Source of the DNA: Selaginella moellendorffii
Lineage: Eukaryota > Plantae > Lycopodiophyta
Direction of reading: 5' to 3'
DNA length: 64,000 bases
Assembly: GCF_000143415.4 (NCBI RefSeq)
Contig: NW_003314348.1
Span: 288,085-352,084, forward strand
Of the stretch, positions 7,571 to 31,772 are shown in pieces. Below the pieces are notes generated by a model. The model worked only from the letters and a program-made list of their open reading frames with translations. It made no database searches and was not told the DNA's origin. The stretch's first letter is position 1. Every line of letters begins with the position of its first letter. The translations under genes and the position numbers were made by a program.

Positions 7571-7572
7571 TT

Positions 7573-7583
7573 TGGTATCAGAG
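7573..7583 (+). promoter_or_regulatory. Primer binding site of A (tRNA-iMet)
   Basis: TGGTATCAGAG, 2 nt after the LTR end. Confidence 0.92.
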
Positions 7584-10700: not shown

Positions 10701-12486
10701 GACCCAACGAAGATGGCCAACGCATGAGAAAGAGATGTTTGCTATAGTGTCGGCCCTGGAACACTGGAGACACTACTTGGGTGGACATACCAAGGTTTAT
10801 ACAGATAGTAACACACTAAGCTACTTCGCTACGCAGCCTAAGCTTACGCCGAAGCAGGCTCGTTGGCAAGAGAAGCTTGCTAGATATGATATTGAAATCA
10901 TATATAAACCTGGTAAAGACAATATTGTTCCGGATGCGTTGAGTCGTCAAGCTCAGTTCCGGGCAATATCGGCAATCAGTTCAGACTGGTTGAAGGACGT
11001 TCGGGCTTCGTATGGAAGTGATCCATTGGCGAAGGCAATCTTATGCCGTGCGGGGTTGTTGAAACAGAGCCCTGGTAGCGAAGCAGCAAAAGTTGCTAGT
11101 CGCACTAATGCGAAGCTTCACTTCTCAGTTCGGGATGGGCTTATATTCTATAAGCAAGAAAGATTGTATCTTCCCTCTAAGGATCTTCAGCAGTTATTTC
11201 TGCGGGAACATCACAATGTTCCAGCAGCGGGACATGGTGGACAGCGAAAGACTCTGGCTTCATTGAAAAAGGGATTTTTCTGGTCTGGTATGGAAGATGA
11301 TGTAGCGGACTATGTCCGTTCCTGTCCTGTATGCCAGCAATGTAAGCGCAGAACTGAGAAACAGGCTGGAAAGTTGCAGTGCATTCCAGCACCGGCATGG
11401 CCATTTCAAAGTGTGACACTTGATTTCGTCACTTGCTTGCCGAAGTCTAAGGGTTATGATACTTTGATGGTGGTTGTGGATCGGTTGTCAAAGATTGCAC
11501 ACTTCATTCCAACTGTGGGAACAGTAAATGCGAAACAAGCAGCAAAGCTCTTTTTCCATGAAGTAGTGCGAGTTCGTGGTCTCCCTAAAGAAATGATCTC
11601 AGATAGAGATTCGAGGTTTACGGGGAAGTTTTGGGGGACCCTATTCCAGTTGTTTGGTACCAAGTTGAAGTTTAGTACAGCTTACCATCCTCAAACCGAT
11701 GGGCAGACCGAACGCGTGAATGCTCAAGTTGAGGATTATCTGCGGTACTATGTCGCGGCGGACCAACGCGACTGGGTTGAGCATTTGGATACGGCAGAAA
11801 TTTGTTATAACAACACATTTCACAGCGCTATAGGCTGTTCTCCATGGGAGATGTTGCAAGGGAATGCTCGTGGGGTTCCTCAACAGATCGTTGTCCCAAA
11901 ACCAATGACCGAGGTGTTGGTCCCAGCCGTGGAAACTTATGCGGAGCAGCTATGCCAAGGTTGGTCTAAAGCTACTGAGGCGATGGGCAAAGCTCAGGAT
12001 AGGTATCGACGTGATAAGGATCAGCATCGTCGGGATGTATCCTATCAAGTGGGAGATCAGGTGTGGCTATCTTCCCGAAACTTGAACATTAAGGGTTCTT
12101 TGTCTCGGAAGCTCTTGCCGAGATATGTTGGACCCTATCGGGTGCTAAAACGCATTGGTGATGTATCCTATCGGTTGGATCTTCCTGCGGAGATGTCCAA
12201 TGTTCATAATGTATTTCATGCCAATCTATTGGCTCCTTACACTATGGATGTTGCGCGTCAAGGGGAGATTCGTCCACCCCCAGACGTTGTGGACGGTGAA
12301 CCTGAATACGAAGTAGAAACTATCTTGGATTCCCGGTTCCGGAGACGGGCTCGTGTGAAGGAATATTTAGTTAAGTGGAAAGGTTACCCATCTTGTGAAT
12401 CAACTTGGGAGCCTCTTAGTCATCTTACACATGCTCGTGAGCTTGTCACGGAGTATGAGACTCGTAATAAAGATTCACTTTTGTAA
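7744..12486 (+). CDS. Gag-Pol polyprotein (Gag, CCHC knuckle, aspartic protease, RT, RNase H, integrase, chromodomain)
   Basis: ORF 7561-12486; first in-frame ATG at 7744 (alternative 7762). Motifs in Ty3/gypsy order: [34 protein letters not shown]...H...[32 protein letters not shown]...YLVKWKGY...STWEP. Confidence 0.97.
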
Positions 12487-13085
12487 ATCTTGTAATCAAT
12501 CTTGCAAATTAATAAAGTAATATATTTCTATCAATCAAAAGTGTCGTTTCTCTCGATCAATTGTACTTGGGTCAGTTTTGGCAGGCTGACTTCGGCACTT
12601 CGGTGCATGGGTCCAATCCATAACCATGGGGATACCTATTATAGACTGATCACAAGTCCCCGCCTCTCTCTCGATGACTCCTTTTCAAAAAAAAAAAAAA
12701 AAAGGGGCGTGGTCGTGTAAACAACTTAATCTGCCAGTTTATAATAGTTGTCTAAATCTTCCCGACGGGGTTGATTTCTTGCTCAGGGGCAGTTGGGCCT
12801 CTGGCCTTCTCCCTATATCCCTACGGGCAGGGATGTATCATTCCTTTGTAAGCTGAGTGGTACTCAGAGCAGCAAGGGTGGCTAACTCCGTTGGTCATTT
12901 CCTTGTCGGCGACGGCCGGAGGGTGTCTGAGTCTTAACGTCTTTGGACATAGAGGAGAGGTCGTTCCATAACTCATTTAAGTCGGTGTGTTTCCCACATA
13001 GTGTGCTTTCCGTTAACTTTCGGAGTTGTTTCCTTGACGGTTTGCTAGACTCGGGTATGCATCGACGAGGACGTCGATCTTCCCC

Positions 13086-13098
13086 AAGGGGGGGAGAG
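13086..13098 (+). promoter_or_regulatory. Polypurine tract of A
   Basis: AAGGGGGGGAGAG immediately before the 3' LTR. Confidence 0.92.
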
Positions 13099-14021
13099 TG
13101 TCGCGAATGTGACTTCGAGTATCGAAAGATACTTGTCGACCGGTCCTTACGGATACTCTTTCCTTACTGCCATGACGGCAGGAGATCGGTACAGTTGGAT
13201 CCCTTTAGTAGCCCCTCTTGTGCTAGTGGAGTTAACTGGGCATTCCGAGTGTACTTAGACCGGACGAGCATAAGGACGGAATTCCTACGTGCTATTAGCT
13301 AAGCATACTTAGCCCGGTAAGGAGTTCCCGTCTCGTTATGTCTTGCACTGGCTAGTGACAAGAACCCTCGCGTATTGAGACTAGTCCCTCAATATCGCTG
13401 GATGATAGCTTACCGTGTCTGCCAAACACCCTCGCTATCACGCCCTTTGTGTTGGTCTCATTTCGGTCCCAAATGCTATTTATGGAAAGTGTCTAGATTA
13501 GCTTATTTGGCATATCTACGGAATGTAGAGATCGGCCTGAACACAATGGTGTTTGTCCCGTGTCCAAATTCGCAATCTAAGGACATTCCATATTTAGTAA
13601 GTTTCGAGCTTGTCCCAGAGACTAACTCCTGGTACTAAGGGAGGCTTGGGGTGAAAGCCCAAAGCGTGTGTTCCTCAAGGGGGGGGGGGGGGGCTATGGG
13701 GGGTTCCAAATGTATAGTAGGGATAGTGGTTGGATGCATGTCCGACCACCTGAGACATTAGTTTGGCTCCCGCTGGGCTGTGTCGCTCCTTGTTCTGCGT
13801 CCGGCTTGGGTCTAAGCCCAAGCTCCACGCTGCTCTAGTCGGTGGAGTACCCTCCTTCTCGCATTAGGCCACCGGTATGCCAAAATTGTGCCAGACTCCG
13901 TCTGACACCATTTTGCGTGCAGGTGCTGGATACGGGGAGCTGGTGCTCGTGGGATTGTACCGGACCCTCGTTTCGTAGCGCAACGGGCTTGGAGTTCGGC
14001 TCCAAATTCAGGTGCGCTACA
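13099..14021 (+). repeat. 3' LTR of element A (923 bp)
   Basis: Differs from the 5' LTR by about 5 transitions and a G-run 3 nt longer. Confidence 0.96.
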
Positions 14022-15577
14022 CCGCAACCTTGAACATTTGGATAGCACCTTCTATCCATCATTCGCTAGGGACTTAGTCCCTTGGGCTTTATCCATTGCC
14101 CTCGCGACATCAAACACCACCTCTTGGTGTTCTAGAGTGTTCGGGTGTCCCAATGATGGCTTCCTTGACAATGAGTATTTCCTTTCATGACATTGACTTA
14201 CTACATTGCAACATAAGCAATTTATCCCCCGTAAGGGTATATCTAACTTCTTTATACCATTAAGAAGTCTTGGGTAGTTACCTTCTACCCGCTTAACCAA
14301 TTATCTTGCACCTCTTGCTTAGTTGCCCCATAGCTGTCAAGTCTTACAACTCATTGCTTGGTGCTTCCACACCTCCATCATTATCTGGGTCACCACACTC
14401 CAACCGCATGCCTTCCAGCTTAGGCCTTGCCATTCCCATTTCCATTGGGACTCCTTTGGCAAGGGGTCCTCATGAACCCAACAACATAGCCTCAAGGTAT
14501 CACACCTTGGCACATTTGGTGTCTCCACACCATCGGCTCCACGAGCCTACCTCTATGACACTTTTTCTTTGTGTCTAAGTCTTTGCCAAGACCAATACCG
14601 CTCTTTCTCATGCCAACCATTTGTTAGCACGGCACCATAGAGGTCACACACAACTTTGTGTCAAAGTTGTTTTCTATTTGGGAACACCTTTCCTACGACT
14701 TTTAGCACTGCACATTTTGCCATCGATGAGATACCCTCTGTTCTCATCCTTGGATCCTATGATCCCCCCCCATCCTTCGTGGGGTAAAACACACCTCAGT
14801 CCAAATGCTTCCATCAGTCCTTTTAGGACCATCCCTTGACTCTACTTGAGTCGTCTAGCAACTTTGGACTTGGTTAATCCACCAACCCGTAAGGTCCTAC
14901 TTGTGAGGCACTAGCTCACTGGAATACACTTCTTGCATTCCTGTCCTACTCAAAAGGATTATTTTCACAAATGTTACTCCGACACTTGATTTTGTTCTCT
15001 GGGGGCAACCTTTGCCCCTTAGGACTACTTGTCCATGTGATGAGAACACCAACTCATCCACTTAATACACCCCCAACTCCTGGGGTTGTTCCAGCATTTA
15101 TTAGAGGTAGCCCCGGCTACCTTTTCAAGGACTTGAGTCCTCTTCCGTATTTGACCTCCCACGGTCATTACTTCTGGTCTCACATTCATGAGCACCAACC
15201 TCAACTATATGAGGAAAATCTTGTGACTCCTTTATTGTTTTGGAGTCTCTATCTTTCCCGTGATCCCAACTATAGTTGTTTACCACAACTACATTAGCCA
15301 GTTTGCTAAGTCAAACGCTCATCTGGATCACATCCTCAACTCTTTGAGAAAAGCCATCTACTGTTCCCAAGATCCCAAAGTCGTTCCATTATTGGCCCTT
15401 TTCTATCCACCACCTCGTCTACAAGTTCGCACATGAACTGTAATGGAGAGCCATGTCTTCCCGACTTGCTACTCCTCAAGGATAGGCCCACTCCTCGGAC
15501 CTTCCGATGCCAACACTAGTGGTGATATACTTGAGCACCAATAAAAGTCGGACTAAGGAACAACTCCGATACCAAGT

Positions 15578-16700
15578 TGTAAGTGACTAATTTTTCCATT
15601 CTACTTTAGTCACTTAACCACACCTCCGACCATTTGGAGGAGTCTCATTCACAACCTCCATTAGTCCAATTCAGGACTTGGGACTTGCTAGCCCCAAGAA
15701 TGGCATCCATGCCACTCAACACTTGCACCTGGTCCAAGTGCTCCACGTGTCCGGTCCGAAGACCGACACCCAAAGGTACCACTGACATCTCGGCCCGTTA
15801 CGCTAAGGCCATGCCCATTCACCTTTGCTGCACTAGTGGTCCAATACCACTTGCATCACCATCCCGTCTCTCCAAGACTGGGCCATTTGTTCACGAGTGG
15901 TCATCCTAGATCCACTCCTTAGCATCCTTAGGATGCCCACAGACCTGGGGAACCGCCTTCCCCAAAGTCCCTTTGTCAGTTCCTACCAAGTCCCTTTCTG
16001 CCCCTGGCCGTGTTTACCAACACTGCCACTGGATCGAGGCCCACAGGCCCGACCACTAAGTCCCATGGTCCTCTGGGACTTCCTCACCACACAACTGTGT
16101 CCTTGGTCACTACCCCAGAGGACTGCTCCTCTTCCTTTCCACAGTCTAGGCTTTTGGGACAACATTTCGGAACACCGTGGCCTTACGCGAGCCACCTGGG
16201 TACTCTCCCCGCCTTTCGCCTTTAGGTGCTCTAGCCATGGGCTTAGAGCGAGGTTCCGTTGAGCCACGCCTGGTATCCAAGTAGGTAGTGCCACCCACAC
16301 TTGGACTGGGAGCATCGGCCAGTCGATCTCCCGGGGGAACTAGAGCCGGCTCTTGAACACTTCACCAAGCTACCCCGCTTGTCGGTCCGTGTTCACTCTA
16401 GTCTTGGACTTCCCAGTAGGCAGCTCATCACCCAACACTGGGTCCGGCCTTCCTGGGCCAAACTGGCCTTTCCTGGCCAAACTGGCTCCACTGCAGTCCT
16501 CCCCCCTTACTATACTTTTGGAGCTCACCAAACCCCCCAAGGTCTGGGAGACGAACGCTTTGGGCTTTCACCCTCTCAGGCTCCGGACTCGGACTCGGAC
16601 TCGGACTCGGACTCGGACTCGGACTCGGACTCGGATTCGGACTCGGCCTCGGGCTCGGGCTCGGTCCCGGCCTCGGCCTCGGTCTCGGTCTCGGTCCCGA

Positions 16701-16732
<32 letters not shown>

Positions 16733-17441
16733 CCGGTCTCGGTCTCGACTTCGGACTCCATCTCGGACTCCATCTCGGACTCCATCTCGGACTCCATCTC
16801 GGGTCCATCTCGGGTCCATCTCGGACTCCATCTCGGACTCCATCTCGGGTCCATCTCGGACTCCATCTCGGACTCCATTTCGGGTCCATCTCGGGTCCAC
16901 CTCGGACTCCATCTCGGACTCCATCTCGGACTCCATCTCGGGTCCATCTCGGACTCCACTTCGGACTCCAACTCGGGTCCATCTCGGGTCCACCTCAGAC
17001 TCCACTTCAGACTCCATCTCGGGTCCATCTCGGGTCCACCTCGGACTCCACTTCGGACTCCATCTCGGACTCCATCTCGGGTCCATCTCGGACTCCACTT
17101 CGGACTTCAACTCGGGTCCATCTCGGGTCCATCTCGAACTCCACTTCGGACTCCAACTCGGGTCCATCTTGGACTCCACTTCGGACTCCAACTCGAGTCC
17201 ATCTCGGACACTCCCACGTGTCATGTGTTGGTCCTTTTGGGTCCCTTTTTGGAGCCTCGCTTTTTGCTCGCTTCGTGCTCGTTCCTCGAGCACTTCTTTG
17301 GGAGTTCCACTCCCGCTCTTGACTTTTCAAGTCGGAGCTTTTGGTCCAAACGTGTTACACTCGTTTGGCTCTCGCTTCAGCCACTACCACGTGGCACCCT
17401 TTCCGGCTCCACTTTGGGGCCTAGGGATTTTGTGTCTCACA
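15578..17441 (-). repeat. 5' LTR of B1
   Basis: TGTAAGTG...TCTCACA, preceded by CTCCGATACCAAGT (PBS on the minus strand). Confidence 0.93.
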
Positions 17442-18065
17442 CAGAGATGGAGTCCGAGATGGATTGAGATGGAGTCCGAGATGGACCCGAGATGGAGTCC
17501 GAAGTCGAGACCAAGACCAAGACCGAGACCGGGACCAAGACCCAGACCGGGACTAAGACCGAGACCGAGACCAAGACCAAGACCGGGACTGAGGCCGGTA
17601 CCAAGACCGAGACCGGGACCGAGGCCGGGACCGAGTCCGAGCCCAGTCCCAGTCCGAGTCTGAGTCTGAGTCCGAGTCCAAGTTCGAGTCTGAGAGGGTA
17701 AAAGCCCAAAGCGTTCGTCTCCCAGACCCTGGGGGGTTTGGTGAGCTCCAAAAGAAAAGTATAATAGGGAGAGGATTGCAGTGGAGCCAATTTGGCCAGG
17801 AAAGGCTAGTTTGGCCTAGAAAGGCTGTACCCAGTGTTGGGTGATGAGCTCCCTGTAAGCTTCTGAGTTTGGAGTTCCCAAGAAGTCACCCATCCCAATA
17901 CTATTCAAACCCAAGGATGCTTAACCCCAAATATCCCAAAACCCTTAACCAGGGGGTGCACTTTTATTCATGGGCCCTTTCCCTCTATATTTGAACCCTA
18001 TGGACCGTCTCTCAAGTCATTCTCTTTGGTTGCTTACAATCCACCACGCTTCCCTACAAGTTCAT

Positions 18066-18739
18066 TATAGCACACCTTATCTCTCTCCCCTTAATCTAAC
18101 TGGAAAAGGGGCAATTGCTTGATGAGAGAGCCCTTAGTGGCTATTTTATCCCCATTTATCCCCCAAGGTTCCAAGGATCCACGGTGACAGTATATCCAAA
18201 TCTCATCCCATGATCACATGCGTTACACTCACCCCCCCTTCAGAGATGTCAATGTCCTCATTGACTATTGACTAACAACCCCTACTGAGCCAAGGGGAAC
18301 CAGCACCTCCATTTTCGCACTCAATCTACCAATCCTTCCATTGTGTAGACCAACTATTCCATGTGAGGCAACTAGTCATCCACCCGTACCGCAGTCCCAC
18401 GGTGGATACCTTCGTCCGTGGATACTCCACACAAGAGGAAGGACGTACGCATGGATGCCCAATACGTACGATTTCAAATTTAGGGGTAGGAATATACCTT
18501 GCTCAAGGGTATATTATACTTTTAAGTAGCCACTAATCAATGGGAATCGAACCTGTGCCATTTGCTCTAATACCAACTATAGCGCACCTTATCTCTCTCC
18601 CCTTAAGCCAACTGGAAAAGGGGCAATTGCTTGATGAGAGAGCCCTTAGTGGCTATTTTATCCCCATTTATCCCCCAAGGTTCCAAGGATCCACGGTGAT
18701 AGTATATCCAAATCTCATCCCATGATCACATGTGCTACA
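18066..18739 (-). mobile_element. TRIM D (674 bp), nested in Cassandra
   Basis: 162-bp LTRs at 18066-18227 and 18578-18739. TSD TTCAT at 18061-18065 and 18740-18744. PBS rev-comp TGGTATTAGAGC; PPT rev-comp GAAGGGGGGGTGAG. Confidence 0.92.
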
Positions 18740-18939
18740 TTCATGCCCTCGTGAACAGAAGCTGAGAGCCACAACTCTCCCGAGAGCCCCGCTCTCTTGA
18801 CATCCTACCCCTCAGGTTGAGCCCAGTGGGAGCAAACTTGACCAGCCAGATGTCAGTCAACATGTGGTGTGATTCCCTTAGCCAACCAACAGAGTCGGAC
18901 CTAAGACCCCTCTAATACCAAATGTAAGCTCTTGAGTTT

Positions 18940-18994
18940 GGACTTCCCAGGAGGTCACTCATCCTAGTACTATTCAAACCCAAGAATGCTTAAC
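18940..18994 (-). promoter_or_regulatory. 5S rRNA-derived Pol III internal promoter region (A box/IE/C box) in the Cassandra LTR
   Basis: Minus strand GTTAAGCATTCTTGGGTTTGAATAGTACTAGGATGAGTGACCTCCTGGGAAGTCC matches the plant 5S rRNA as I recall it at 48/55 positions. A more diverged copy lies at ~17871-17925 and a partial copy at ~21150-21187. Confidence 0.9.
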
Positions 18995-19602
18995 CCCAAG
19001 TATCCCAAGACCGTTAACCGATTGGAAAAGGGGGTGCACTCTTATTCACTGGCCCTTCCCTCTATATTTGAACCCCATGGACCGTCTCTCAAGTCGTTCT
19101 CTTTGGTTGCTTACACTGCCCACTAGGAAATCCAAGACTAGAGTGAACATGGACCGACAAGTAGGGTAGTTTGGTGAAGTGTTCAAGAGCCGGCTCTAGT
19201 TCCCTCGGGAGATCGACTGGCCGATGCTCCTAGTCCAAGTGTGGGTGGCACTACCTACTTGGATACCTGGCATGGCTCAACGGAACCTCGCTTTAAGCCC
19301 ATGGCTAGAGCACCCGAAGGCGGAAGGCAGAGAGAGTACCCATGAGGCTCACGTAAGGCTGCGGTGTTCCGAAATATTGCCCCAAAGTCCTAGACTGTGA
19401 AAAGGAGGAGGAGCCGTCCTCTAGTGTAGAGACTAAGGATACAGTCATGTGAGGAGATAGTCCCAGAGGACCGAGGCACTTAGTGGTCGGGCTTGTGGGC
19501 CTTGATCTAGTGGTAGTGTTGGTGAACACGGCCATGAACAGAAAGGGACTTGGTGGGGACTGGAAAAGGGATATTGGGGAAGGCTAACCCCCATGTCTGT
19601 GG

Positions 19603-20092
19603 TTGCAGATGCTGGCAGTGCAGAAGGTGTGGACCCTTCGGCAGGGACTGAGGCAAAACCAGACAAAGTCAAACAGACCGAAGTGGAATCAGTCCCTCAG
19701 GCAATTCCCAAGTACAAACCAAAGCCCCCACTGGTCTTCAAGGGAGTGAACGACTATAAGGTGGTGGAGGATTGGTTTTACGATATGGAGGACTACTTCC
19801 GAGCGTTGCGGTTACCGAGCTCAGAGAAGGTCCCATGTGCAAAACCATACTTGGCAGATAATGCCAAGTGTTGGTGGAGAATGACAGAGGCCAACGAAGG
19901 ACTGGTGGCCACTTGGGAAATGATGAAGGCGAGGATCCGCACGACTTACGTTCCTCCGAATGCTACCCTGCATCTAAGGGACGAGCTGAGTAGCCTGAAG
20001 CAGACCGAAACCATTCAGGAGTATGTGAATGGGTTTATGGCAAAGAGGATACTTGTTATGGACATGGGGGATATGGATGCGTTCCATGCCTT
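19603..20092 (+). pseudogene. Gag fragment of chromovirus family E
   Basis: PKPPLVFKG...EDWFYDMEDYF...AKCWW is homologous to the Gag of A. The 3' part is nearly identical to 21524-21711. Both ends are deletion junctions. Confidence 0.88.
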
Positions 20093-20094
20093 AA

Positions 20095-20831
20095 GGCTGT
20101 AGGGGGTTCCAAAAGTATAGTAGGGATAGTGAGGTCCAAGAACCAGTCTTGAAGGAACTCTCCAGTGGTGCTTCCAAACTGACTTGAAGTTGAGACTGGG
20201 GCCAAGAGGCCTTGTGTGGGAGTGAGCATGGGCTTGGGTGGTGACGGAGTGGCCACCCAGGGAAGTGCTCAAGAGCAGCTCCCACTCCCGAAAGGGAAAC
20301 CGACTGCGGTGCTCCCGGCTCATGTGGAGTGGTGCCCCACTTGAGTACCTTGTGGCTCATTGGTCCTCGCCCTTCCTAGGGGCTTGGGCCTTCCTTTCGG
20401 GATGGAAGTGGGGGGGTAGAGGTACCCATACCGGGCTGTTAGGCCATAGTGTTTCGCTTTGACATCCCGAAGCAAGTGTTGCACCCAAGGCTTGGGATTT
20501 AGAGGGTCCCATGAACAAGTCTTGTTGTACCAAGGGGTGTTAGGAACCTGGAGGCTTGGTGTGCTTGGCTGCTTGTGCCTGTGGGGAGTGTAGCCGAACC
20601 TTAAATCCAGTCTAACCCGGGGAGGGGGATTGAGAGAGATTTGGGAATCTGTAGATGGATAGCTAACACTCCGTTGCTCATGCAGTGAGTAGCTAAAACC
20701 AAGTAGGACCAAGTAGGAGCTGGTACAATAGGCGGGAACCTTGGCGAGGGAACTTAGCACAAGCCAAGGTAGTGTTGGTCGGATAGGCGAGGTAAGTTTG
20801 CAAATTGAAAAGGAAAAATTTGTGGCTTACA
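20095..20831 (+). repeat. 5'-truncated LTR of family E
   Basis: Colinear with 26522-27258. Ends GGCTTACA, followed by a PBS. Confidence 0.92.
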
Positions 20832-21205
20832 TTTGGTATCGGAATGGTCTTGGGTCCGACTCTATTGGTTGGTTAGGGGAATCACACCACATGTTGATTG
20901 ACATCTGGCTGGTCCAGTTTGCTCCCACTGGGCTCCACCCGAGGGGTAGGGTGTCAAGAGAGCGAGGCTCTCGGGAGAGTTGCGGCTCTCAACTTCCGTT
21001 CACTAGGGCGTGAACTTGCAGGGAAGCGTGGTGGATTGTAAGCAATCAAAGGGAACGACTCGAGAGACGATCCATGGGGTTCAAATTTAGAGGGAAAGGG
21101 CCCATGAACAAGAGTGCACCCCCTTTTCCAATCGGTTAAGGGTCTTGGCTTTGAATAGTACTGGGTTGGGTGACCTCCCGGGAAGTCTAAACTCAGGAGC
21201 TTACA
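20832..21205 (+). mobile_element. Single Cassandra unit (PBS, internal region, PPT, one LTR at 21037-21205) fused between the E LTR and the E internal region
   Basis: Reverse complement of the internal region and LTR of the Cassandra at 17854-19115. No second Cassandra LTR and no TSD. Followed directly by a second PBS and E gag. Confidence 0.92.
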
Positions 21206-24200
21206 TTTGGTATCGGAGCCTTTTCCTCAGTTCTAGCGAAGGATAGGGGCAGATTGCTGGGAGATGGCAAAGGCAGGGCGTAAGTGAACCCAGGTAGAGA
21301 CGGAACCTCCGCCAGAGCTGGAGCCTTCGGTCGAACAAGAGGCTATGGATGAGGAATCCTTGCATGAGGAGGACTCCAGTGAGGAAACTTCCAAACAGGA
21401 GTCTAATGGCGAGGTTCCGTCGTCCAAGGCTCAATTGGACGTTCTAGAAGGCCAATTAGCGCAGACCAATGCCCTGCTGGAGACTCTCGTACGCAAGCTA
21501 AAGCGTGACGAGAAGTGGAAGAAGTGGCCACTTGGGAAATGATGAAGGCGAGGATCCGCATGACTTACGTTCCTCCGAATGCTACCCTACATCTAAGGGA
21601 CGAGCTGAGTAGCCTGAAGCAGACCGGAACCATTCAGGAGTATGTGAATGGGTTTATGGCAAAGAGGATACTTGTCATGGACATGGGGGATATGGATGCG
21701 TTCCATGCCTTCATATCAGGTTTGCAAACCTGGGCTCGTGGTGAGGTGATGCGGTGGAACCCGACCAACTACAAGGAAGCGTTGGATGTGGCCATCAAGG
21801 TGCATTTCAACAATAACCTGCGAAAGGGGAACACGACGGGGTCGGGATCCATGTTTAGCAAAGGGGCCAAACCAAGGGGAACGTATAGCAGGGAGAAATT
21901 TAAGAAGAGTTTCTCTAAGAATGAGTCCTCAGGGTTCCGGAAAGGCAAATCCGGTAGCCAGCGAGTGAGTACGTGGGGGAGTCAAGCGAAAAGAGAAAAA
22001 CCCACGGATAAGAAGGTCAAGTCGTATAGCAGCGTGGGAAACAATGTATGCTACAATTGCGGTGAAGCGGGACACTTTTCGAGAGAATGTCCCTACCCGA
22101 AGAAGGCCAGAGCCAATATGGCCATCAAGTCGGGTGAAGTCCAAACTGAGGTATGTGATCCAGTCCCTAACTCAAAGTTACTCATTACACGAGCAACTTT
22201 GGTAGAGAGTCGTTCGCAACATCTACTAGCCCTCCGAGGGAAACTCAGAGGTAGCTTTTTTAAGATCCATATTGACACAGGTGCTTTGGATAATTTTGTG
22301 GCTGCAGACATAGTTCGGCAAGCCGGACTAATGGTGTAGCAGCTAGGTGAACCAAAGACTATAGAGTTTGTTCAAGGTAGCCAAAGCACCAATGAGGTAC
22401 TTCGACAAGCGAGAGTCGAAGTAGGGACATGGAAAGTAGACATGGATTTCACCGTGTTGGACATGGCGGGATTTGACATGATCTTCGGAATGGATTGGTT
22501 CAATCGGTTCGTGGTAGCCCTGCATGGACAAGGTAGGAACCTTGTGGTATTGGCAAATGCCCAAGGAAGAAGATCTAGGGTGGAGGCCTAGGATCTAAAG
22601 GTAGGGCAAAGCAAGGCCAAAGATTCCTACTTAAACCTGGTGTCCATAAGAGGACAACTCACTAAAGGAACTAAGGCAGCCTTTTTGTGCTTACTCTCGG
22701 TGAAAAGCGACAAAAAAACAGGAACGGAAGAAGTACCTTTAGTGATTCAGCGGGTGTTGGACCAATTCCAGAATACCATGCCAGAGGAGCTACCGGCGGG
22801 GTTGCCCCCCGCACGACCGATAGAACATAAGATTGATCTGGTCGAGGGTGCTGAGGTGGTGGTTCGTCCCCCCTATTGTTTGAACGAAAAAGAACTCAAG
22901 GAGCTCAAGTGCCAACTAGAGGAGTTGGTGGACAAAGGGTATATTAGGTTAAGCAAGTCGCCATATGGGGCACCGGTGTTATTTGTGAAAAAGAAAGATG
23001 GATCTATGCGCATGTGCATAGACTACCGGTTGCTCAACAAGTATACAAAGAAGAATAAATACCCTTTGCCAAGAATTGAGGACCTGTTTGATAGGTTGGG
23101 AAAGGCAAAATACTTCTCGAGGATTGACCTCAGGTCAGGATACTACCAGATCAGGGTAGCAGAGGAAGATGTCGAGAAGACAACCTGTCGAACCAGGTAT
23201 GGGAGCTTTGAGTTTCTGGTGATGCCCTTCGGGCTATGCAATGCGCCGGCAACGTTTTTGGCACTGGTGAACCACGTCTTCGTACCCTATCTGGATCACT
23301 TTGTGGTCATCTATATCGACGACATCCTGATCTATAGCAAGATGCTAGAGAAGCATGCCGAACACTTGGCAAAAGTGTTTGAGAAAATAAGGGAACACAA
23401 ACTGTATGCTAAAGAGAGCAAATGTGACTTTGCTCAACAAGAGGTAAAGTTTCTCAGGCATGTGGTGGGCCAAGACGGGCTCAAGGTGGACTCGGAGAAG
23501 GTCCAAGCGATCTAGGAATGGGAGCGACCATCGAATGTACATGAGTTGAGGGCGTTCTTGGGGCTATGCAACTACTACCGAAAGTTTATCAGACACTATT
23601 CGAGAGTAACCCTACCCTTAACGGACCAAACAGAAAAAGGGAAGATGGTATGGACAGCGGAATGCGAGGTGGCATTCGTCCACCTCAAAGGGAAGTTGAG
23701 GAAGGCTCCCGTATTGGCATTACCAGACTTTGGTAAGGACTTTGAGGTAGAAACGGATGCTTTGGACTTTGCATTGGGCGCAGTTTTGAAGCAAGACAAC
23801 CATCTAGTAGCGTTCTTCTCGAAGAAGTTGGACAAAGCTTAAAGGAAGTGGCCTGCCCACGAGAAGGAATTGTTTGCGGTGGTCAAGGCACTCAAGGAGT
23901 GGCAACACTACCTTGGGAGACACTTCAAGGTTTACATGGACAATGTGGCAACGAAACACTTTTTGTCACAACCCGACCTGAGAGGGAAACAGGGTCGGTG
24001 GGCCAATGCCTTGGTCGAGTTTGATTGTGAGATTCTGTACAAGCCTGGGAAGAGCAACATCATGGTAGATGCACTGAGTCGAAAAGCGAGCTTGAAGTTG
24101 GCGATATCTAGTGCGACAGCAACCTTTTGGGACGATGTGCGGAAAGCATATGAGAACGATGGTCTAGCACAAGAAGTGTTGCTGAGGAATCTAGAGGCAT

Positions 24201-24824
24201 GGGAAGCTCACCAGAGAGGTGGGCTGCCAACGGAAGAGAAAACGGGCTATGCAGAATGCAACAGACTCATCTATTACAAGGAAACAAGGGTGTATGTGCT
24301 AGAAAGGGAACTAAGGAAGGTAACCTTAGAAGAGTGTCATGACGGACCTCTTGCAGGACACAGCGGAGTGCCCAAGACGATGGGCTTACTCAAGAGGAAG
24401 TACCATTGGCCAGATATGGCTAAGGACGTCCAAAACTATGTAAAGACATGTCCAACATGTCAGCAGGTCAAAGCTGTGACTAAGGCTAGTGGGGCCTTGT
24501 TGCAAAGCATCCCAATTCCAGATCGTCAGTGGAAATGTCTTATGATGGACTTCATCACGGGACTCCCCCCAAGCGAGGGGTTTGATGCGATATTCGTGGT
24601 GGTGGACCGATTTTCGAAAATGGCACATTTCATACTCACCACAACGGAAGTGGATGCGGAAGGTGTGGTGAAGCTGTTCTTCGAACAAGTGGTTCGAGTG
24701 CGGGGAAGGCCGGAAGAGATTATCTCAGATCGAGATAAGATCTTCACTAGTAGGTTCTAGAGGACTCTCTTGGAACAGTATCGCACCAAGTTGAAATTCA
24801 GCACAACCTATCACCCACAGACAG

Positions 24825-24871
24825 GTATTGGGTATTAAGTCAAGTTTGATGGCACTAACACTTCTTGACAG
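24825..24871 (+). other. Putative spliceosomal intron 1 (47 nt) in E integrase
   Basis: GTATTG...CACTAAC...TTGACAG; removal restores [12 protein letters not shown] exactly. Confidence 0.78.
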
Positions 24872-25289
24872 ACGGACAAACGGAAAGGGTGAATAGGCAG
24901 CTGGAGGATTATTTGTGATGCTATGTCTCGGGAGACTAGACCAATTGGGTAAGTCATTTGGGACTTGCGAAAATGTGTTATAACAACTCACCACATTCGA
25001 GTATCGGGGTGAGTCCATGGGAAGTCATCAATGGGCGAGCTAATGAAGGTCCTGTGGAACTCGGTGTGGCCGAGTATCATGGAGAGCTACCCGCGGTGGA
25101 GGCATTCACGACAGAAAGATTCAACATTTGGAATCTAGTGAGGGATTCCGTGGAATGGGCTCAACAAAGGTAGACCAAGTACGCGAACTAGAAGTGCCGG
25201 GACGTAGAGTTCCAAGCTGGGGAGAAGGTGTGGCTAAACACCAAGAACCTCAGGCTACCAAGTGGGATCAGTCGAAAGTTGACCCAAAG

Positions 25290-25341
25290 GTAAAAATGCA
25301 TGTATTCCTGTAAATGAATTGATCTTGAGTTCCTTAAGCAG
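25290..25341 (+). other. Putative spliceosomal intron 2 (52 nt) in E integrase
   Basis: AG|GTAAAA...AAGCAG|GT; removal restores KLTQR-FAGPY exactly. Confidence 0.78.
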
Positions 25342-26115
25342 GTTCGCGGGGCCTTATGAGATTGAGGCACGAATCGGTAAAGTGGCTTACTAACTCCAAC
25401 TTCCTTGAGAGATGGGGAAGATGCACCCAGTGTTCCACGTGAACTTACTCAAGCCGTACTTTGAGGATCCGCTTTGCAAGGACCAAGTAAGACCTTTACC
25501 TGAGGTCATCCAAGGGGAAGAGGAATACGAAGTCGAGGCCATCCTCAATGCGCGTAAGAGCAAGCGACAAGGATGCGAGGTGAGAGAGTTCCATGTGAAG
25601 TGGAAAGGATTTCCACACTGCGAAGCAACATGGGAATCAGAGGAGAACCTAGCGATCTAGTGGAGGAATTTCTGCAAGGTAGAACTCTATGTACTTATGC
25701 AAAGTTCAATTAAAGTATCAATTTGTAAAGTTGAGCAATGGCATATGTTGGGACCCGAAGGCGCACCGAAGGTAAGCTAATTAGTATGGGTTAGCTAGGT
25801 CAACCAGGCATTAGGGCACTACGCTCGACTCCCCGTGGGGATGTCGAATCCGTAGACGTATTCTATGGAGGTTGGGTTCGAGTCCCAACCCCCTAGTAAA
25901 GCAAGGCTAGGTTCAAGTCCCGACCCCATACTAGGGCGTGGTGAGGTGAGGGGTATAGGGACACCTATACTCCGTTGGCATGGGCTCTTGGCCGGGGAGG
26001 CTAACTTAGGCACACCGCTAAGTGGGGGGATGCCCCCGGAGACATGGTCAACAAGTTGTAGGATAAAAAGAGACGTTCGATGTGGGCATCGAACTTCTTC
26101 GATTGGTGGTGGAAT

Positions 26116-27258
26116 TGTAAGGAACCGACTCACTGAAGTGTCGTAGGCTAAAGGATCCCCAAAAGCATGACCGAAATGACAAAGAGTTCATTGGATGGGA
26201 CCGAGTCGAAGATCGAGTCCAAGACCAACTCTGAGACCGAGTTCGAGATAGAGTCCGGGATCGAGTCTGAGGTCGAATCGGAGACCGACTTCGAGACCGA
26301 CTTCGAGACAGAGTCTGAGATCCAAATCGGGTCTGAGACCAAGTCTGAGGTCGAGTCTGAGGTTGAGTCCGAGATTGGGTCCAAGATCGAGTCCGAGATC
26401 GAGTCCGAGACCGAGTTCGAAGTCGGGTCCGAGATCAAGTCCGAGATCGAATCTGAGACTAAGTCCAAATACTAATATGGGTCAAGGGGTGAAAGCCCAA
26501 AGTGTGCGTCTCCTAGGGGGGGGCTGTAGGGGGTTCCAAAAGTATAGTAGGGATAGTGAGGTCCAGGAATCAGTCTTGAAGGAACTCTCCAGTGGTGCTT
26601 CCAAACTGACTTGAGGTTGAGACTGGGGCCAAGGGGCCTTGGGTGGGAGTGAGCATGGGCTTGGGTGGTGCCGGAGTGGCCACCCAGGGAAGTGCTCAAG
26701 AGCAGCTCCCACTCCCGAAAGGGAAACCGACTGCGGTGCTCCTGGTTCATGTGGAGTGGTGCCCCACTTGAGTACCTTGTGGCTCATTGGTCCTCGCCCT
26801 TCTTAGGGGCTTGGGCCTTCCCTTCGGGATGGAAGTGGGGGGGTAGAGGTACCCATACTGGGCTGTTAGGCCACGGTGTTTCGCCCCGACGTCCCGAAGT
26901 AAGTGCTGCACCCAAGGCTTGGGATTTAGAGGGTCCCATGAACAAGTCTTGTTGTACCAAGGGGTGTTAGGAACATGGAGGCTTGGTGTGCTTGGCTACT
27001 TGTGCCTGCGGGGAGTGTAGCCGAACCTTAAGTCTAGTCTAACCCGGGGAGGGGGATTGGGAGAGATTTGGGAATCCGTAGATGAATGGCTAACACTCCG
27101 TTGCTCGTGCAATGAATAGTTGAAACCAAGTAGGACCAAGTAGGAGCTGGTACAATAGGTGGGAACCTTGGCGAGGGAACTTAGCACAAGCCAAGGTAGT
27201 GTTGGTCGGATAGACGAGGTAAGCTTGCAAATTGGAAAGGAAAAATTTGTGGCTTACA
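26116..27258 (+). repeat. 3' LTR of element E (1143 bp), with a 6-mer-periodic GAGTCC/GAGATC array at ~26200-26468
   Basis: TGTAAGG...GGCTTACA, preceded by TTGGTGGTGGAAT. The right flank is family B internal sequence. Confidence 0.92.
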
Positions 27259-30200
27259 GGTAATAGATAAGGCCCAAGGGACTAAGTCCTTAGCGAATGA
27301 TGGATAGAAGGTGCTATCCAAATGTCCAAGGTTGCAAAAACGGGAGAAGTCCGTCTACCCGAATTGAACAAAGCCAAAAATGGAATTTTGGCAGAGCTAG
27401 TGATGGGCATATAATGGCCCATATATAGCAATATTAATCTTGGTGTATGCGATTATAAAGTGAGCATACCCGGATTGAGGAACTACTCCCTAGGCTATCG
27501 GGTAGGTTCATCCCCAAGAATATTTGCTAAGGCATGGTAGAAAGTGCAAAGCTATCCTCCTGGTCTAGGGCCGAAAGAAACATGTGAGGGCAAAAGGCAA
27601 GTAGTAAAGGGATAGAACTAAACTATAAGAAGCGAAGGGCATAACCTAGGGTGGTTATGCAAGGTGGGAGTGGAGAATCAAATGGGTGCTTGAGTGTGTT
27701 ACTACTAGCAACCGTGATGCTATGGAGAGTCTAAAGTATAGAATTGTCCATGCTAGACCATATGGCAATTGAAAAGCTTGCGAAAGGAGAGGCCCTAACA
27801 AACTAAGGGATAGAGTTCCTTCAAGGTTCCCAAAGATAATTCTAGCTAATGTAGTACTTAGAAAGCCAAGTGTAAATGGTTCATAAAATGTGCAAAATCA
27901 AAGTGGCACAGCAAAAGTGTGTTCTTAAAGTTTGCTATAAGGAAATGCTATCAAGGTTAGGGAAGTAATTCCCGAGTGTTCAAAGGGATGACTTTGAATG
28001 AATGTCGATGGTCAAGGACTTTCACGCTTATGCATGAAACCATGTTACATTGGTTGGATGACTTGTTAAGCGAGAGTGGCAAGTCAGGGGAACAAATCCC
28101 CTAGTTGAAGGTGCTAACTTCAAAAGGGGTGGCCTATAGGGCCGAGCATAGAGGAGTTCATGCATGATCACAGACTTGTCAAGTGAGAGGACTTGGCAGT
28201 GCAGAGCAACTAGGTTCCTAAGCTGTGATCTATAGCCCGCTTTAAGTACATGTTGGTGCACTAGCGTGGGGAGTCACGCTAGGCATCCAGGGTGATGCCG
28301 TCTGTAGATGCATATACGGAGGTTAGGTTCGAGTCCCAACCTTCTAATGCTTGGGTTCGAGTCCCAAATCACTAGGGCGTGGTGATGGTTTGGAATATGA
28401 GGACACTTATATTTCGGTGGACATATACTCTCAATGAGTAGATTGGCTTGGGCACACCGCCAAGCGGGGGATGCCCCGGAGTCGTGATGCACGATTAAAT
28501 TGCTTAGTGTGGCTCGGCATATCTAACTTGAACATTTGGTGCGAGTGGCACCAAGGACGTGGTGAATGAGATGGGGACACCCAGTCTTAATTGCTATAGA
28601 CCCTTAGCTGGAAGGGCTAGCTTGGGTGCACCGCCAAGTGTGGAGGATGTTCCTGGGGTAATGGTGAACAACTTAAAAGTCTGGAAGACCTAATGCCTAT
28701 TGACAAACCTGTTAAGGTGCCAAGGTGTGATCACTAGGTGATCTTATGGCTAAAACAAGGATAAAGTCCTTGTGAGGTTAAGGGATAAAGTTCCTAATTC
28801 ATAATGTTAGTTTGAACTATTGATGATGGTGTGGCTTGGTCAAGGTGACCAAGTGGGAAGAACACCTAAAGGAAATCATTTGTGACTATGCGATGTCATA
28901 GTGAGTCCGAAGAAAGTAGTCTCGATGCGAGTAGTCCTGAGTGAGTAGATGCGTGGAATGGTTTGATGGTGAACAGGGAATTTGAGAGAGAAGAAATCCC
29001 ACGACTGTGGCAAAAGTGGATCGCGCTAGGAGTGGAGGCGGACCAGGTGATTGACAACACTGTGGCGTTCTGGAAACTACCGATCCAAGAAAAATCAAAG
29101 GTAACCTCTTGGCTCGTGGTGACGAATGGGCTGCCAGTAGGCCAGCGGTTTCAAGCGGAGAATGCTTGCAGGTGTTCGGACTGTGGGGAACTGGAGACGG
29201 TCACACACATCCTCTGGGATTGTGACGTGGCCAAGGAGACGTGGCGGCAGGTAGCAAAAGCGACGAGGGAACTAGGGGACAAGCAGGACTTCAAAATTCG
29301 AGAAGGGGATGTCACCCAATGGTTTCCAGAGACAAGGGGACCATGCACAGGAGCAGCTTGGCGGAGGATCTGGTGTTGGGGACGCTCAGGATGGGGCACT
29401 CAAGTTAGGTGGGATGCGGTAGGTGCCGAAGTTGGGACCACAGTGTGGGAGGCCCTTGGACGGGAGAGATGGGAGGTATGGCGGGCTTCCAGGGTACAGG
29501 CACTTTGGGAGGCTCGGAACCGCAACCACTTCGAAGGGCAGTGCAGTCGGATTTCAGCAATCATGGCAAATTGGTGGAGGCTCACACTGGCTGCTATCCG
29601 CTTGAGGGATACGCTGCTTCAGGAGCATGGAAAAAATAGGGAGGCGCTCACAGCTTGGCGACGACTATGGACTCCGTGCTACGGAACTGAACACAAGGGA
29701 GAGGTCAAGTGGAAATGGAGACCTTCGGACACGGTAACAAAGGAGGCTCGACGTGGCAATCTGGCACTGGATGCACTGCGGAGGCAACGACCACAGCAGC
29801 CACGATTGGAGGGCAGCGGTCACTATTAGGTGGAGAATTGCAGGACAGCGTAGTTGAGTGAACAGCACTAAGGGATCCTTTGTTTTTTGTATCAGTCCCT
29901 AAGGGACTTGGAGAAATGTACATACATGTTGCACCGAAGAAAGTAGTCTCTATATAAGAGACCATGGGAGGGTCACAAAGTTGGGCCAGGGATAGAGCCC
30001 ACAATAGAAAATCCTAAAGAGATGTATTAGGGGTGAACACCTTCTGGACTTCTGGATACCTCGAGAATAAAGGTAGTGATACAATATTGCTAGGTGCAAC
30101 AATCAAGGATAGGAGCAAAAGACTAGTGGCTAAAAAAAGAGCCATGGGAATCATGGGAAAGAATCCAAAACGCAAAGTTATGCCAAGAACACTATTGTTT

Positions 30201-31772
30201 TGGGTGCTAACGAATTATGGGAAAGGCAATGTGTTTCCAAGGATGGATTCCCAATTGTTTCGATTTGGCGAAAGTGGAAGTTCCAAGGTAGGGAGCGGTA
30301 AAGTAGCCAAATGATAGGGACGTGAACAGCCCTAACACGAATTAGGATAATTGGAACTTGGTGCTAGAGGTTGCACAAAATGGAAAGAGGATGATGGGGC
30401 TGTCAAATAGAGAACTTCCAAAGATGGGGAAGTCGAATTGCACAATATGTGCAATGCAAAGTGTCAGAAACACTTAAGAAATTGACTCTGACAAGTCAAA
30501 TTTAAAAGTTCCAAAATACAAGTTTATATCAATGGGAACTGAGATGGAGTCCGAGATGGAGTCCGAGATGGACCGAGACGGAGTCTGAGATGGACCCGAG
30601 ATGGAGTCCGAAGTCAAGACCAAGACCGGGACCGAGACCGAGACCAGGACCAAGATCGAGACTGGGACCAAGACCGAGACCGAGGCCAAGGCCGAGACCG
30701 AGCCCAAGCCCAAGTCCGAATCTGAGTCCGAGTCCGAGTCTGAGTTTGAGTTTGAGTCCGAGTCCGAATCCGAGTTTGAGTCTGAGAGGGTGAAAGCTCA
30801 AAGCGTTCATCTCCCAGACCTTGGGGGGTTTGGTAAGCTCCAAAAGTATAGTGAGGGGGAGGACTGTAGTGGAGCCAGTTTGGCCAGGAAAGGCCAGTTT
30901 GGCCCAGAAAGGCTGTACCCAGTTTTGGGTGATGAGTTGCCCACTAGGAAGTCCAAGATTAGAGTGAACTCGAACCGACAAGTTTGGTGAAGTGTTCAAG
31001 AGCCGGCTCTAGTTCCCCTGGGAGATCGATTGGCCGATGCTCCCAGTCCAAGTGTGTGGCACTACCTACTTGGATACCTGGTGTGGCTCAATGGAACCTC
31101 GCTCTAAGCCCATAGCTAGAGCACCTAAAGGCAGAAGGCGAGGAGAGTACCCATGAGGCCTGCGTAGGGCCACGGTGTTCCAAAAATGTTGCCCCAAGGT
31201 TCCAGACTATGAAAAGGAAGAGAAGCTGTCCTATAGTGTAGAGATCAAGGATACGGTCATGTGAGGAGGAAGTCCCAGGGGATCGTGGGACTTAGTGGTC
31301 GAGCCTATGGGCCTTGATCCAGTGGCAGTGTTGGCAAACACGGCCATGGGCAAAAAGGGACTTGGTGGGGACTAGAAAAAGGATATTGGGGAAGGCGAAC
31401 CCCCATGTCTGTGGGCATCCTAAGGATGCTAAGGAGTGGATCGGGGATGATCACTCATGGATGGATGGCTTAGTCTTTGAGAGATGGGATTGTGATGTAG
31501 GTGGTGTTAGACCACCGGTGTGACCAAGGTGAAGGGGCATGGCCTTAGCGTAACGGGCTGATATGTCGGTGGTACCTTGGGGTGTCAGTCTTGGGATCGG
31601 ACAAGTGGAGCACTTGGACCAAGTGCAAAGGTTGAGTGGCGGGGATGCCATTCTCGGGGCTAGCAAGCCCAAGTCCAAAATAATACTTATGGAGGTTGTG
31701 AGTGAGACTCCTTCAAGTGGTCGGAGGTGTGGTTAAATGACTAAAGTAGAATGGAAAAATTAGTCGCTTATA
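27259..31772 (+). mobile_element. Family B copy B2 (partial), with a LINE insertion and a deletion joining the internal region to the LTR array at ~30540
   Basis: Colinear with 33220-35480. The LTR remnant at 30541-31772 ends GTCGCTTATA. Confidence 0.85.
28924..29933 (+). mobile_element. 5'-truncated L1-type LINE (ORF2 C-terminus with zf-RVT zinc-binding domain)
   Basis: ORF 28963-29829 contains FWKLPIQEKSKVTSW...NGLP...CSDCGELETVTHILWDC...W and ALWEARNRNHFEG. 17-bp target duplication CCGAAGAAAGTAGTCTC at 28907-28923 and 29934-29950. Confidence 0.9.

What the first reader, a model, noticed from the sequence alone, without database searches (positions are those of the whole stretch)
20095..21230. 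Cassandra unit fused into chromovirus E at the LTR/PBS junction: candidate autonomous partner of Cassandra
Seen: the order is E LTR, PBS, Cassandra internal (205 bp), PPT, one Cassandra LTR, PBS, E gag-pol, E LTR. There is no second Cassandra LTR and no 5-bp TSD. The unit is bounded by the 19-bp repeat GCTTACATTTGGTATCGGA (20825-20843 and 21199-21217). This is not an integrase-type insertion. Established: Cassandra TRIMs are non-coding and, to my knowledge, their mobilising element is unidentified. Inference: template switching at the PBS between co-packaged E and Cassandra RNAs, or recombination of a 1-LTR circle. The former would be physical evidence that a Ty3/gypsy chromovirus mobilises this Cassandra. 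The chimera also puts a Cassandra LTR directly upstream of gag-pol.
Basis: partly seen in the sequence, partly recalled or inferred. Interest (0 to 1): 0.85.

Follow-up and report, generated by a model that had tools for sequence, protein, structure and literature searches.

The report
Cassandra unit inside a chromovirus retrotransposon
One decayed copy of a plant jumping gene carries a protein-less "Cassandra" mini-element right at its replication primer site, likely joined while both were being copied, and the two families share their replication signals, which makes this family a testable but unproven candidate for Cassandra's unknown helper.

Summary
The structure is real: E LTR end, PBS, Cassandra internal (205 bp), one Cassandra LTR (169 bp), PBS, E leader, broken gag-pol. 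Contigs of public runs show that normal E copies go straight from LTR to leader, so the unit is an extra 373 bp. No contig bridging the Cassandra-LTR/E-leader junction was listed, so it looks like a one-off. Corrections: E's LTR is 1143 bp (26116-27258). The 5' LTR is cut short by a separate local rearrangement, so the missing TSD says nothing. The chimeric Cassandra LTR has lost box A. New evidence: E and Cassandra share PPT, LTR start, LTR end and PBS, while intact chromovirus C matches another TRIM instead. The unit is about as decayed as E's LTRs. Best reading (0.45): PBS-anchored strand transfers between Cassandra and E cDNA in one particle. The main rival (0.3) gives the same shape without co-packaging: integrase-independent, PBS-directed insertion of Cassandra cDNA into a resident E, as shown for Tf1. 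One locus cannot prove partnership, but the candidate is testable.

The parts
17444..19602 (+). Left part of the host element (family A, non-coding, LARD-like), itself interrupted by an older Cassandra; ends at a deletion of about 1.8 kb
   Evidence: Self-BLAST to A copies 30541-33294 and 14026-16822; gap 1805-1836 bp; contigs continue differently behind 19602
17854..19115 (-). Neighbouring ordinary Cassandra (two LTRs, 5-bp TSD with one mismatch, nested TRIM); reference for the family, not the donor
   Evidence: Rfam 5S matches in both LTRs, E 0.016 and 0.028, below the gathering score; 10-14% divergent from the chimeric unit
19608..19904 (+). Displaced piece of E gag ('b'), missing from its normal place between 21523 and 21524; preceded by 5 filler bases (19603-19607)
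   Evidence: Joint 21523->19608 in 3 contigs of X1 and 2 of X3; Pfam Retrotrans_gag; tblastn
19905..20092 (+). Local duplicate of E gag 21524-21711 (188 bp, 4 differences)
   Evidence: both copies share letters that nearly all family contig depth lacks (19967/21586, 19994/21613)
20095..20831 (+). E 5' LTR, truncated: only the 3' 737 of 1143 bp remain
   Evidence: 95% identical to 26522-27258; true LTR start at 26116
20825..20843 (+). Junction 1: E LTR end, 2-nt spacer, tRNA-Met-type PBS (first copy of the 19-bp repeat)
   Evidence: not tested for bridging contigs
20832..21036 (+). Cassandra internal domain with PBS and PPT (PPT about 21020-21036)
   Evidence: 89-90% to the neighbouring Cassandra internal
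21037..21205 (+). Single Cassandra LTR, 7-bp terminal inverted repeat, box C kept, 25-bp deletion at 21148 removing box A
   Evidence: 90.5% to the neighbour's 5' LTR; box scan; 84 and 55 contigs carry the missing bases
21199..21217 (+). Junction 2: Cassandra LTR end, 2-nt spacer, PBS, then E leader (second copy of the 19-bp repeat)
   Evidence: No bridging piece listed among 3673 contigs and 39 RNA reads laid
21218..25660 (+). E leader and broken gag-pol (gag with deletion, zinc knuckle, RT, RNase H, integrase, chromodomain); in-frame stops; two short GT-AG-bounded inserts in integrase
   Evidence: Pfam; tblastn against intact element C, 43-45% identity; chromodomain translation
26105..26115 (+). 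E polypurine tract, near-identical to Cassandra's PPT end
   Evidence: Homologous to family A's PPT/LTR start, 83%, E 7e-11; motif count
26116..27258 (+). E 3' LTR, full length 1143 bp, with 12-bp repeats, 6-bp terminal inverted repeat
   Evidence: 26455-26558 matches the inside of C's TSD-bounded LTR
27259..28926 (+). Right part of host element A, resuming at E's insertion site
   Evidence: Self-BLAST to 33220-34860

Best explanation
A 373-bp Cassandra unit sits between the LTR and the leader of one dead E chromovirus copy, and it was most likely joined there during reverse transcription, by two strand transfers anchored on the primer-binding site that both families share. Shown: the structure, the normal E and Cassandra junctions, the shared PPT, LTR ends and PBS, and a separate rearrangement of the locus. 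Inferred steps: (1) Cassandra RNA is packaged with E RNA. (2) E plus-strand strong-stop DNA anneals to the PBS end of Cassandra minus-strand DNA and is extended through the Cassandra internal domain, LTR and PBS copy. (3) That end anneals to the PBS of E minus-strand DNA and runs on through gag-pol to the E LTR. (4) The chain, with E ends, is integrated into a family-A element. (5) Later repair of a break in gag moved and duplicated gag pieces and deleted E's 5' end, its left TSD and 1.8 kb of the host. The chimera appears not to have amplified.
For: Both junctions fall exactly in LTR-end/PBS homology, the natural site of plus-strand transfer (mechanism from established knowledge). Junction 2 keeps the spacer of the LTR donor, as that mechanism predicts. 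Decay-type changes are 10 of 372 in the unit against 20 and 14 of 734 in E's LTRs (Fisher p 0.70), so the unit looks about as old as the E insertion; the gag duplicates carry 2 and 2 of 188 (4 seen against 9.8 expected, p 0.03). The PPT/LTR-start motif has 6 hits in the window: 2 Cassandra, 1 E, 3 family A; none in 100 shuffles. Cassandra against E scores p 2e-4 and 2e-3, against intact chromovirus C p 0.11 and 0.04; Cassandra shares 7 terminal bases with E and 4 with C. The adjacent Cassandra is not the donor. Template switching is a proposed source of three-LTR elements (PMC1950507, first half read).
Against: Junction 1 has Cassandra's 2-nt spacer, whereas the default transfer would bring E's 3-nt spacer; this needs heteroduplex correction or an E variant with a shorter spacer. 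The TSD that integration of a ready-made chain predicts cannot be checked, because the left end is deleted. No contig bridging junction 2 was listed, so there is no sign of recurrence or amplification. The decay count is an upper bound, since it includes changes from before insertion; only 5 of the 10 were confirmed against the family majority among the 40 of 252 rows shown. The unit against the gag duplicates is not significant (p 0.11). The motif was written after seeing the sites. Non-coding family A shares the signature, and GTGGAT-like PPT ends are common in Cassandras of other plants (supplement of PMC10853983), so the match may point to a lineage, not to this family. The locus has undergone DNA-level rejoining.
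Confidence: 0.45

Rival explanations
1. Integrase-independent insertion: free Cassandra cDNA with a single-stranded PBS tail annealed to the PBS of an E copy already in the chromosome, and its own internal LTR-end/PBS homology resolved the other side. No co-packaging is needed, so the chimera would not name the mobiliser.
For: Shown for Tf1: insertions go to PBS homology, mostly at resident Tf2, giving tandems with a single LTR between (PMC11042837; abstract, passages and one Results section read). It predicts no TSD, loss of the donor's 5' LTR and donor-type spacers, as seen at both junctions. E is a very abundant target (tens of thousands of contigs laid).
Against: Tf1/Tf2 tandems use long homology; here there are only 14-19 bases. 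The unit is as decayed as E's LTRs, so it would have had to enter soon after E. The pathway was shown in yeast; I saw no demonstration in plants.
Confidence: 0.3
2. Ectopic capture during DNA repair: a break at E's LTR/PBS boundary was patched by copying from a genomic (tandem) Cassandra elsewhere, possibly in the same event that scrambled gag.
For: The locus has three other repair-type junctions within 1.9 kb, two with filler bases. Tandem Cassandra arrays exist in plants including ferns (PMC7215508, abstract and passages). An old genomic donor would bring its decay with it, so the age match would not date the event.
Against: The other junctions are not at replication signals, while these two both are. 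The nearest Cassandra is 10-14% divergent and lacks a tandem PBS. Tandem Cassandra was not shown for this genome.
Confidence: 0.12
3. Single reciprocal crossover between a Cassandra 1-LTR circle and E.
For: The insert is one circle length to within a base and is bounded by a direct repeat.
Against: It should give +374 bp and leave E's 3-nt spacer at one junction; the net is +373 and both junctions have 2 nt. Gene conversion or an E variant with a 2-nt spacer would rescue it.
Confidence: 0.07
4. Assembly chimera joined through the 19-bp shared sequence.
For: No listed contig bridges junction 2 and no run holds half of the sampled words (best 0.44).
Against: It would take two false joins 374 bp apart on 19 bp of overlap. 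Both E LTRs share 5 minority letters against the family (of 14 sites checked), and the unit has its own decay and a private deletion. The runs do not appear to hold this allele at all: the longest pieces listed differ by about 15%.
Confidence: 0.06

Closest known systems
Cassandra TRIM lineage (Kalendar 2020 PMC7215508; Yin 2014 PMC4079214; Maiwald 2024 PMC10853983)
   Same: Non-coding, 5S-derived LTR with box A and box C 18 nt apart (neighbour copy), Met-type PBS, PPT, 5-bp TSD; sizes (LTR about 193, internal 205) closest to the three fern entries of the supplement table (187-208 and 190-193). Multi-LTR forms are known.
   Different: Published multi-LTR forms are Cassandra-only; here one unit lies inside a gag-pol-bearing element. 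This LTR copy has lost box A.
Complex three-LTR elements from template switching (Sabot and Schulman 2007, PMC1950507; Zeng and Sun, bioRxiv 10.1101/452573)
   Same: LTR-internal-LTR-internal-LTR chain, with PPT before and PBS after the middle LTR and related outer LTRs.
   Different: Those cases are within one family and are diagnosed by TSDs. Here the middle LTR belongs to an unrelated family, the shared sequence is 14-19 bases, and the TSD is lost.
Integrase-independent Tf1 insertion at Tf2 (Li 2022, PMC11042837)
   Same: Donor placed just upstream of a resident element's PBS, one LTR between, no integrase signature.
   Different: Fission yeast, long donor-target homology, shown experimentally; here inferred from one plant locus.
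Cross-family TRIM chimeras of sugar beet (Mob DNA 2026, PMC13570524; preprint 10.64898/2026.03.01.708851)
   Same: Tandem elements whose extra LTR comes from another family.
   Different: TRIM with TRIM; not Cassandra with an autonomous-type chromovirus.
Putative TRIM/autonomous pairs (Gao 2016 PMC4717578; Helenus, Kojima 2024 PMC10886601)
   Same: Partner inferred from shared cis sequence.
   Different: Those rest on long LTR or internal similarity or on PBS type. Here only the termini, PPT and PBS are shared, plus one physical chimera. Kojima states that there is no indication of the family that mobilises Cassandra.

Membership tests
Cassandra TRIM | 5S rRNA-derived segment with box A and box C in the LTR | tested here: met
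   Neighbour LTRs match Rfam 5S (E 0.016, 0.028; below gathering score), box A 1 mismatch, box C 0-1, spacing 18. The chimeric LTR is 90.5% identical to them but gave no Rfam match and lacks box A; a 2-mismatch look-alike remains 17 nt before box C.
Cassandra TRIM | Non-coding internal domain with Met-type PBS and PPT | tested here: met
   205 bp, PBS at 20834, PPT before 21037; PBS and PPT types as in the supplement table of PMC10853983
Cassandra TRIM | Two LTRs and a 5-bp TSD (complete insertion) | tested here: not met
   The unit has one LTR and no TSD; it is a Cassandra-derived unit, not a complete element. The neighbour meets this.
Ty3/gypsy chromovirus (element E) | gag-PR-RT-RH-INT order with C-terminal chromodomain | tested here: met
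   Pfam gag, zf-CCHC, RVT_1, RNase H, integrase, Chromo in that order; colinear with intact element C over the protease region too
Ty3/gypsy chromovirus (element E) | Clade by RT/RH/INT phylogeny (Galadriel, Tcn1, Tekay, Reina, CRM) | not tested
   No labelled references at hand. Aromatic residues in the chromodomain plus a tRNA-Met PBS would fit non-seed-plant Galadriel-like elements as described in PMC6317226 and PMC3350952 (passages); a lead only.
Template-switch complex element (Sabot and Schulman) | Flanking TSD | tested here: inconclusive
   Left end deleted with 1.8 kb of host
Template-switch complex element (Sabot and Schulman) | Outer LTRs from one reverse transcription | tested here: inconclusive
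   95% identical, 34 of 37 differences are transitions; 5 of 14 sites checked share a minority letter: compatible, not proof
Template-switch complex element (Sabot and Schulman) | Both parents of one family | tested here: not met
   Cassandra and E share only termini, PPT and PBS
Integrase-independent PBS-directed insertion (Tf1 type) | Donor upstream of a resident PBS, single intervening LTR, no TSD | tested here: met
Integrase-independent PBS-directed insertion (Tf1 type) | Target was already in the chromosome; annealing-protein dependence | not testable with these tools
   Needs an empty allele or genetics
Autonomous partner of Cassandra | Shared cis signals (PBS, PPT, LTR termini) | tested here: met
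   three other families of one window as the only comparison; tRNA-Met PBS alone is unspecific (39% of elements, PMC6317226)
Autonomous partner of Cassandra | Coding-competent copies, matching activity periods, mobilisation in trans | not testable with these tools
   No genome held; this E copy is broken

The most novel reading that the evidence does not exclude
The E-type chromovirus lineage is the so far unnamed mobiliser of Cassandra in this (probably non-seed) plant. It packages Cassandra and the non-coding family A through a shared PPT, LTR-end and PBS code, a second chromovirus (C) serves a different TRIM through a different code, and this locus is a fossil of Cassandra and E cDNAs meeting inside one particle.
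Probability: 0.38. Interest if true: 0.75.

Novelty: new variant of a known kind. Interest (0 to 1): 0.5.

Why it matters
Cassandra is ancient and spread across ferns and flowering plants, and papers of 2020 and 2024 state that its autonomous partner is unknown (PMC7215508, PMC10886601). A named candidate family with matching PPT and LTR termini, and a countable class of PBS-junction chimeras with built-in control families (A, C), make the question testable in one assembly. If the rival holds instead, the locus would be a plant example of integrase-independent, PBS-directed cDNA insertion across families. Either way three-LTR and cross-family chimeras are a known kind, and this copy is dead and apparently single.

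Tried and rejected
No whole genome is held, so no genome-wide junction count, TSD survey or age distribution could be made. A Cassandra PBS-internal pattern gave 0 matches in metagenome and viral contigs. An E LTR-end 20-mer gave 7 metagenome loci, all chance matches of 20-24 bases with no further similarity. No RNA holder was listed for the stretch; RNA reads laid were 100 (X21, none 99% alike or better) and 39 (X22); no conclusion on expression. Earlier scan notes: 3 look-ups empty, one gave 8 of 32 findings, none on this locus. Rejected: the neighbouring Cassandra as donor; 20098/26525 as LTR start. Also dropped: an autointegration reading of the junction at 20093-20097, which looked like a 5-bp inverted target beside an LTR end until the LTR start moved. 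The eighth PBS base is G at both chimeric junctions and A in the neighbour and in most published Cassandras; that could mark junction 1 as E-type and weaken the spacer argument, but the family state could not be read, whose difference table also omitted a site that one search listed. Junction 1 was never laid on its own. The Cassandra paper on sugar beet (PMC7750724) was not available and may bear on prior reports of chimeras. That no Cassandra-chromovirus chimera is in print rests on searches of an open-access library only; that the integrase inserts are unreported rests on searches (listings only).
Full report
Observation. The window shows E LTR end (20831), a 2-nt spacer and PBS, a 205-bp Cassandra internal domain, one 169-bp Cassandra LTR (21037-21205), spacer and PBS again, then leader and gag-pol. 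The 19-bp repeat is exact, occurs twice and cannot be extended. The unit is Cassandra: it is 89-90% identical to an ordinary two-LTR copy at 17854-19115 (minus strand). That copy's LTRs match Rfam 5S below the gathering score and carry box A and box C 18 nt apart. E is a Ty3/gypsy chromovirus by domain order and chromodomain. It is dead: gag has a deletion and pol has in-frame stops.

What normal copies look like. No genome is held, so I laid contigs of three DNA runs of one sample and reads of two RNA runs. E goes from LTR straight to leader: joint 20831->21205, skipping 373, in 11, 3 and 7 contigs, with four minor variants among the 15 joints shown of 178. On a 103-bp stretch over junction 2, 1694, 1264 and 715 contigs and 39 RNA reads were laid. 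The 24 pieces shown (the longest and some at joints) reach 60 bases at most and lie either on the Cassandra side or on the E side; none bridges. So this junction is not an amplified family in that sample; contigs drop rare variants, so this is not proof of absence, and junction 1 was not tested. The same call shows E's LTR end followed by a 3-nt spacer (40, 16 and 18 contigs), while both chimeric junctions and the neighbour have 2 nt. The net insert is 373 bp, which a plain reciprocal crossover with a 1-LTR circle would not give.

E's LTR is longer than read. Region 26074-26121 is homologous to the PPT and LTR start of non-coding family A (83%, E 7e-11), whose LTR start is fixed by a 5-bp TSD on the copy 17441-2263. 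The G-run at 26516-26524, which looks like a PPT, lies in a stretch that matches the inside of the TSD-bounded LTR of intact chromovirus C. E's LTR is therefore 26116-27258, with a 6-bp terminal repeat, and the 5' LTR is truncated at 20095.

A second event scrambled the locus. Gag piece 19608-19904 is missing at 21523/21524 and sits upstream, starting exactly at the deletion point (joint 21523->19608). The next 188 bp are duplicated, and both copies share letters that nearly all family contig depth lacks. About 1.8 kb of the host A element is gone, with short filler at two joins. The duplicates differ at 4 of 188 sites against 9.8 expected at LTR rates (p 0.03; Fisher 0.11), so this probably came after E inserted. 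It removed the left TSD, so the TSD test is void.

Age of the unit. Decay-type differences (T for C, A for G) are 10 of 372 in the unit, 20 and 14 of 734 in E's LTRs, 2 and 2 of 188 in the gag duplicates and 17 of 372 in the neighbour. The unit looks about as old as the E insertion (p 0.70); the count is an upper bound. The neighbour is too divergent to be the donor.

Shared replication signals. With the LTR start corrected, E and Cassandra share the PPT end and LTR start, seven terminal bases at the LTR end and the PBS. A motif for the PPT/LTR boundary, written after seeing the sites, hits 6 places in the window, all PPTs of Cassandra (2), E (1) and A (3), and none in 100 shuffles. Alignment against shuffles gives p 2e-4 and 2e-3 for Cassandra/E, 6e-3 and 2e-2 for Cassandra/A, 0.11 and 0.04 for Cassandra/C, and 2e-4 for the nested TRIM/C against 0.25 for TRIM/E. 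This is independent of the chimera and is the better argument for E-type proteins serving Cassandra. Limits: one window, few families; similar PPT ends occur in Cassandras of many plants (part 3 of 4 of the supplement of PMC10853983); a beet survey found no consistent family specificity of PPTs (PMC13570524, passage); a Met PBS is the commonest type (PMC6317226, passage).

Mechanism. Both joins are annealing events at LTR-end/PBS homology; that much follows from the sequence. I put 0.45 on two strand transfers between co-packaged cDNAs, because the PBS is the natural transfer site, the ages agree and the cis signals match. Against it, junction 1 has the Cassandra spacer rather than E's. I put 0.3 on integrase-independent insertion of Cassandra cDNA by its single-stranded PBS tail into a resident E, the route shown for Tf1 at Tf2 (PMC11042837: abstract, passages, one Results section); it explains both spacers and needs no co-packaging. 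Repair capture from a genomic tandem (0.12), circle crossover (0.07) and misassembly (0.06) follow. The idea that the Cassandra LTR drives gag-pol is weak: a 25-bp deletion removed box A.

Comparison with the literature. Three-LTR elements from template switching or recombination are known within families (PMC1950507 and bioRxiv 10.1101/452573, first part of two read for each; PMC4079214, passages), and cross-family TRIM chimeras are reported in beet (passages). Cassandra's partner is called unknown in PMC7215508 and PMC10886601, passages read; PMC4717578, PMC10853983 and PMC12486564 (passages) named none in what I saw. I found no Cassandra-chromovirus chimera in searches; PMC7750724 could not be read. 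The strand-transfer details and repair-filler reasoning are from my own knowledge, not from a call.

Verdict. A real, apparently single, cross-family three-LTR chimera: a new variant of a known kind. It does not by itself identify Cassandra's mobiliser, but together with the shared termini and PPT it names a candidate and a cheap genome-wide test with control families. Interest 0.5.

Noticed in passing
window 24825-24871 and 25290-25341: Two short inserts in E's integrase, 47 and 52 nt, each bounded by GT and AG, AT-rich (62% and 67% against 52%), the first with a CTAAC-like branch motif and inside the HPQTDGQTE motif that is uninterrupted in element C; the tblastn frame changes at each. They look like spliceosomal introns in a retrotransposon pol gene; the first could also be a tiny insertion with a 5-bp duplication. 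Further GT-AG-like AT-rich stretches follow the chromodomain (about 25679-25807). Whether they are family-wide or spliced is untested.
   Followed up: partly
window 18066-18740 (minus strand): A second TRIM (LTR about 162 bp, 5-bp TSD) nested in the neighbouring Cassandra shares its PPT/LTR start (p 2e-4) and LTR end with intact chromovirus C: a candidate TRIM/autonomous pair.
   Followed up: partly
window 6651-14021: Element C: young chromovirus, LTRs 99.1% identical, perfect 5-bp TSD, one open 1652-codon frame with all domains.
   Followed up: partly
window 2263-17441 (minus), 17444-28926, 30541-40360: Family A: abundant non-coding LTR element with LTRs of about 1.7 kb full of 11-12-bp repeats; shares 3' internal sequence, PPT, repeats and LTR end with E, so likely a LARD-type dependant of E. 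No gag-pol match by tblastn with C. 34432-40360 has a tandem, shared-LTR layout.
   Followed up: partly
window 19603-20094 and 21523/21524: Displaced gag piece begins exactly where E's gag deletion begins, with a 188-bp duplication: a complex local rearrangement. The join at 20088-20097 is a perfect 10-bp palindrome, and its last 6 bases also occur 10 bp behind the 3' LTR; unexplained, may be chance.
   Followed up: yes
window 54140-55831 (minus): PPR-repeat open frame of 562 codons, only 28-40% identical to the best database proteins (seed plants and Selaginella alike), pointing to a poorly represented plant lineage.
   Followed up: partly
window 50233-50845, 42028-43542, 28945-29829: Old E-like LTR remnant (68-70% identity), a distant integrase remnant on the minus strand, and a zf-RVT (LINE-type) fragment inside an A copy.
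   Followed up: no
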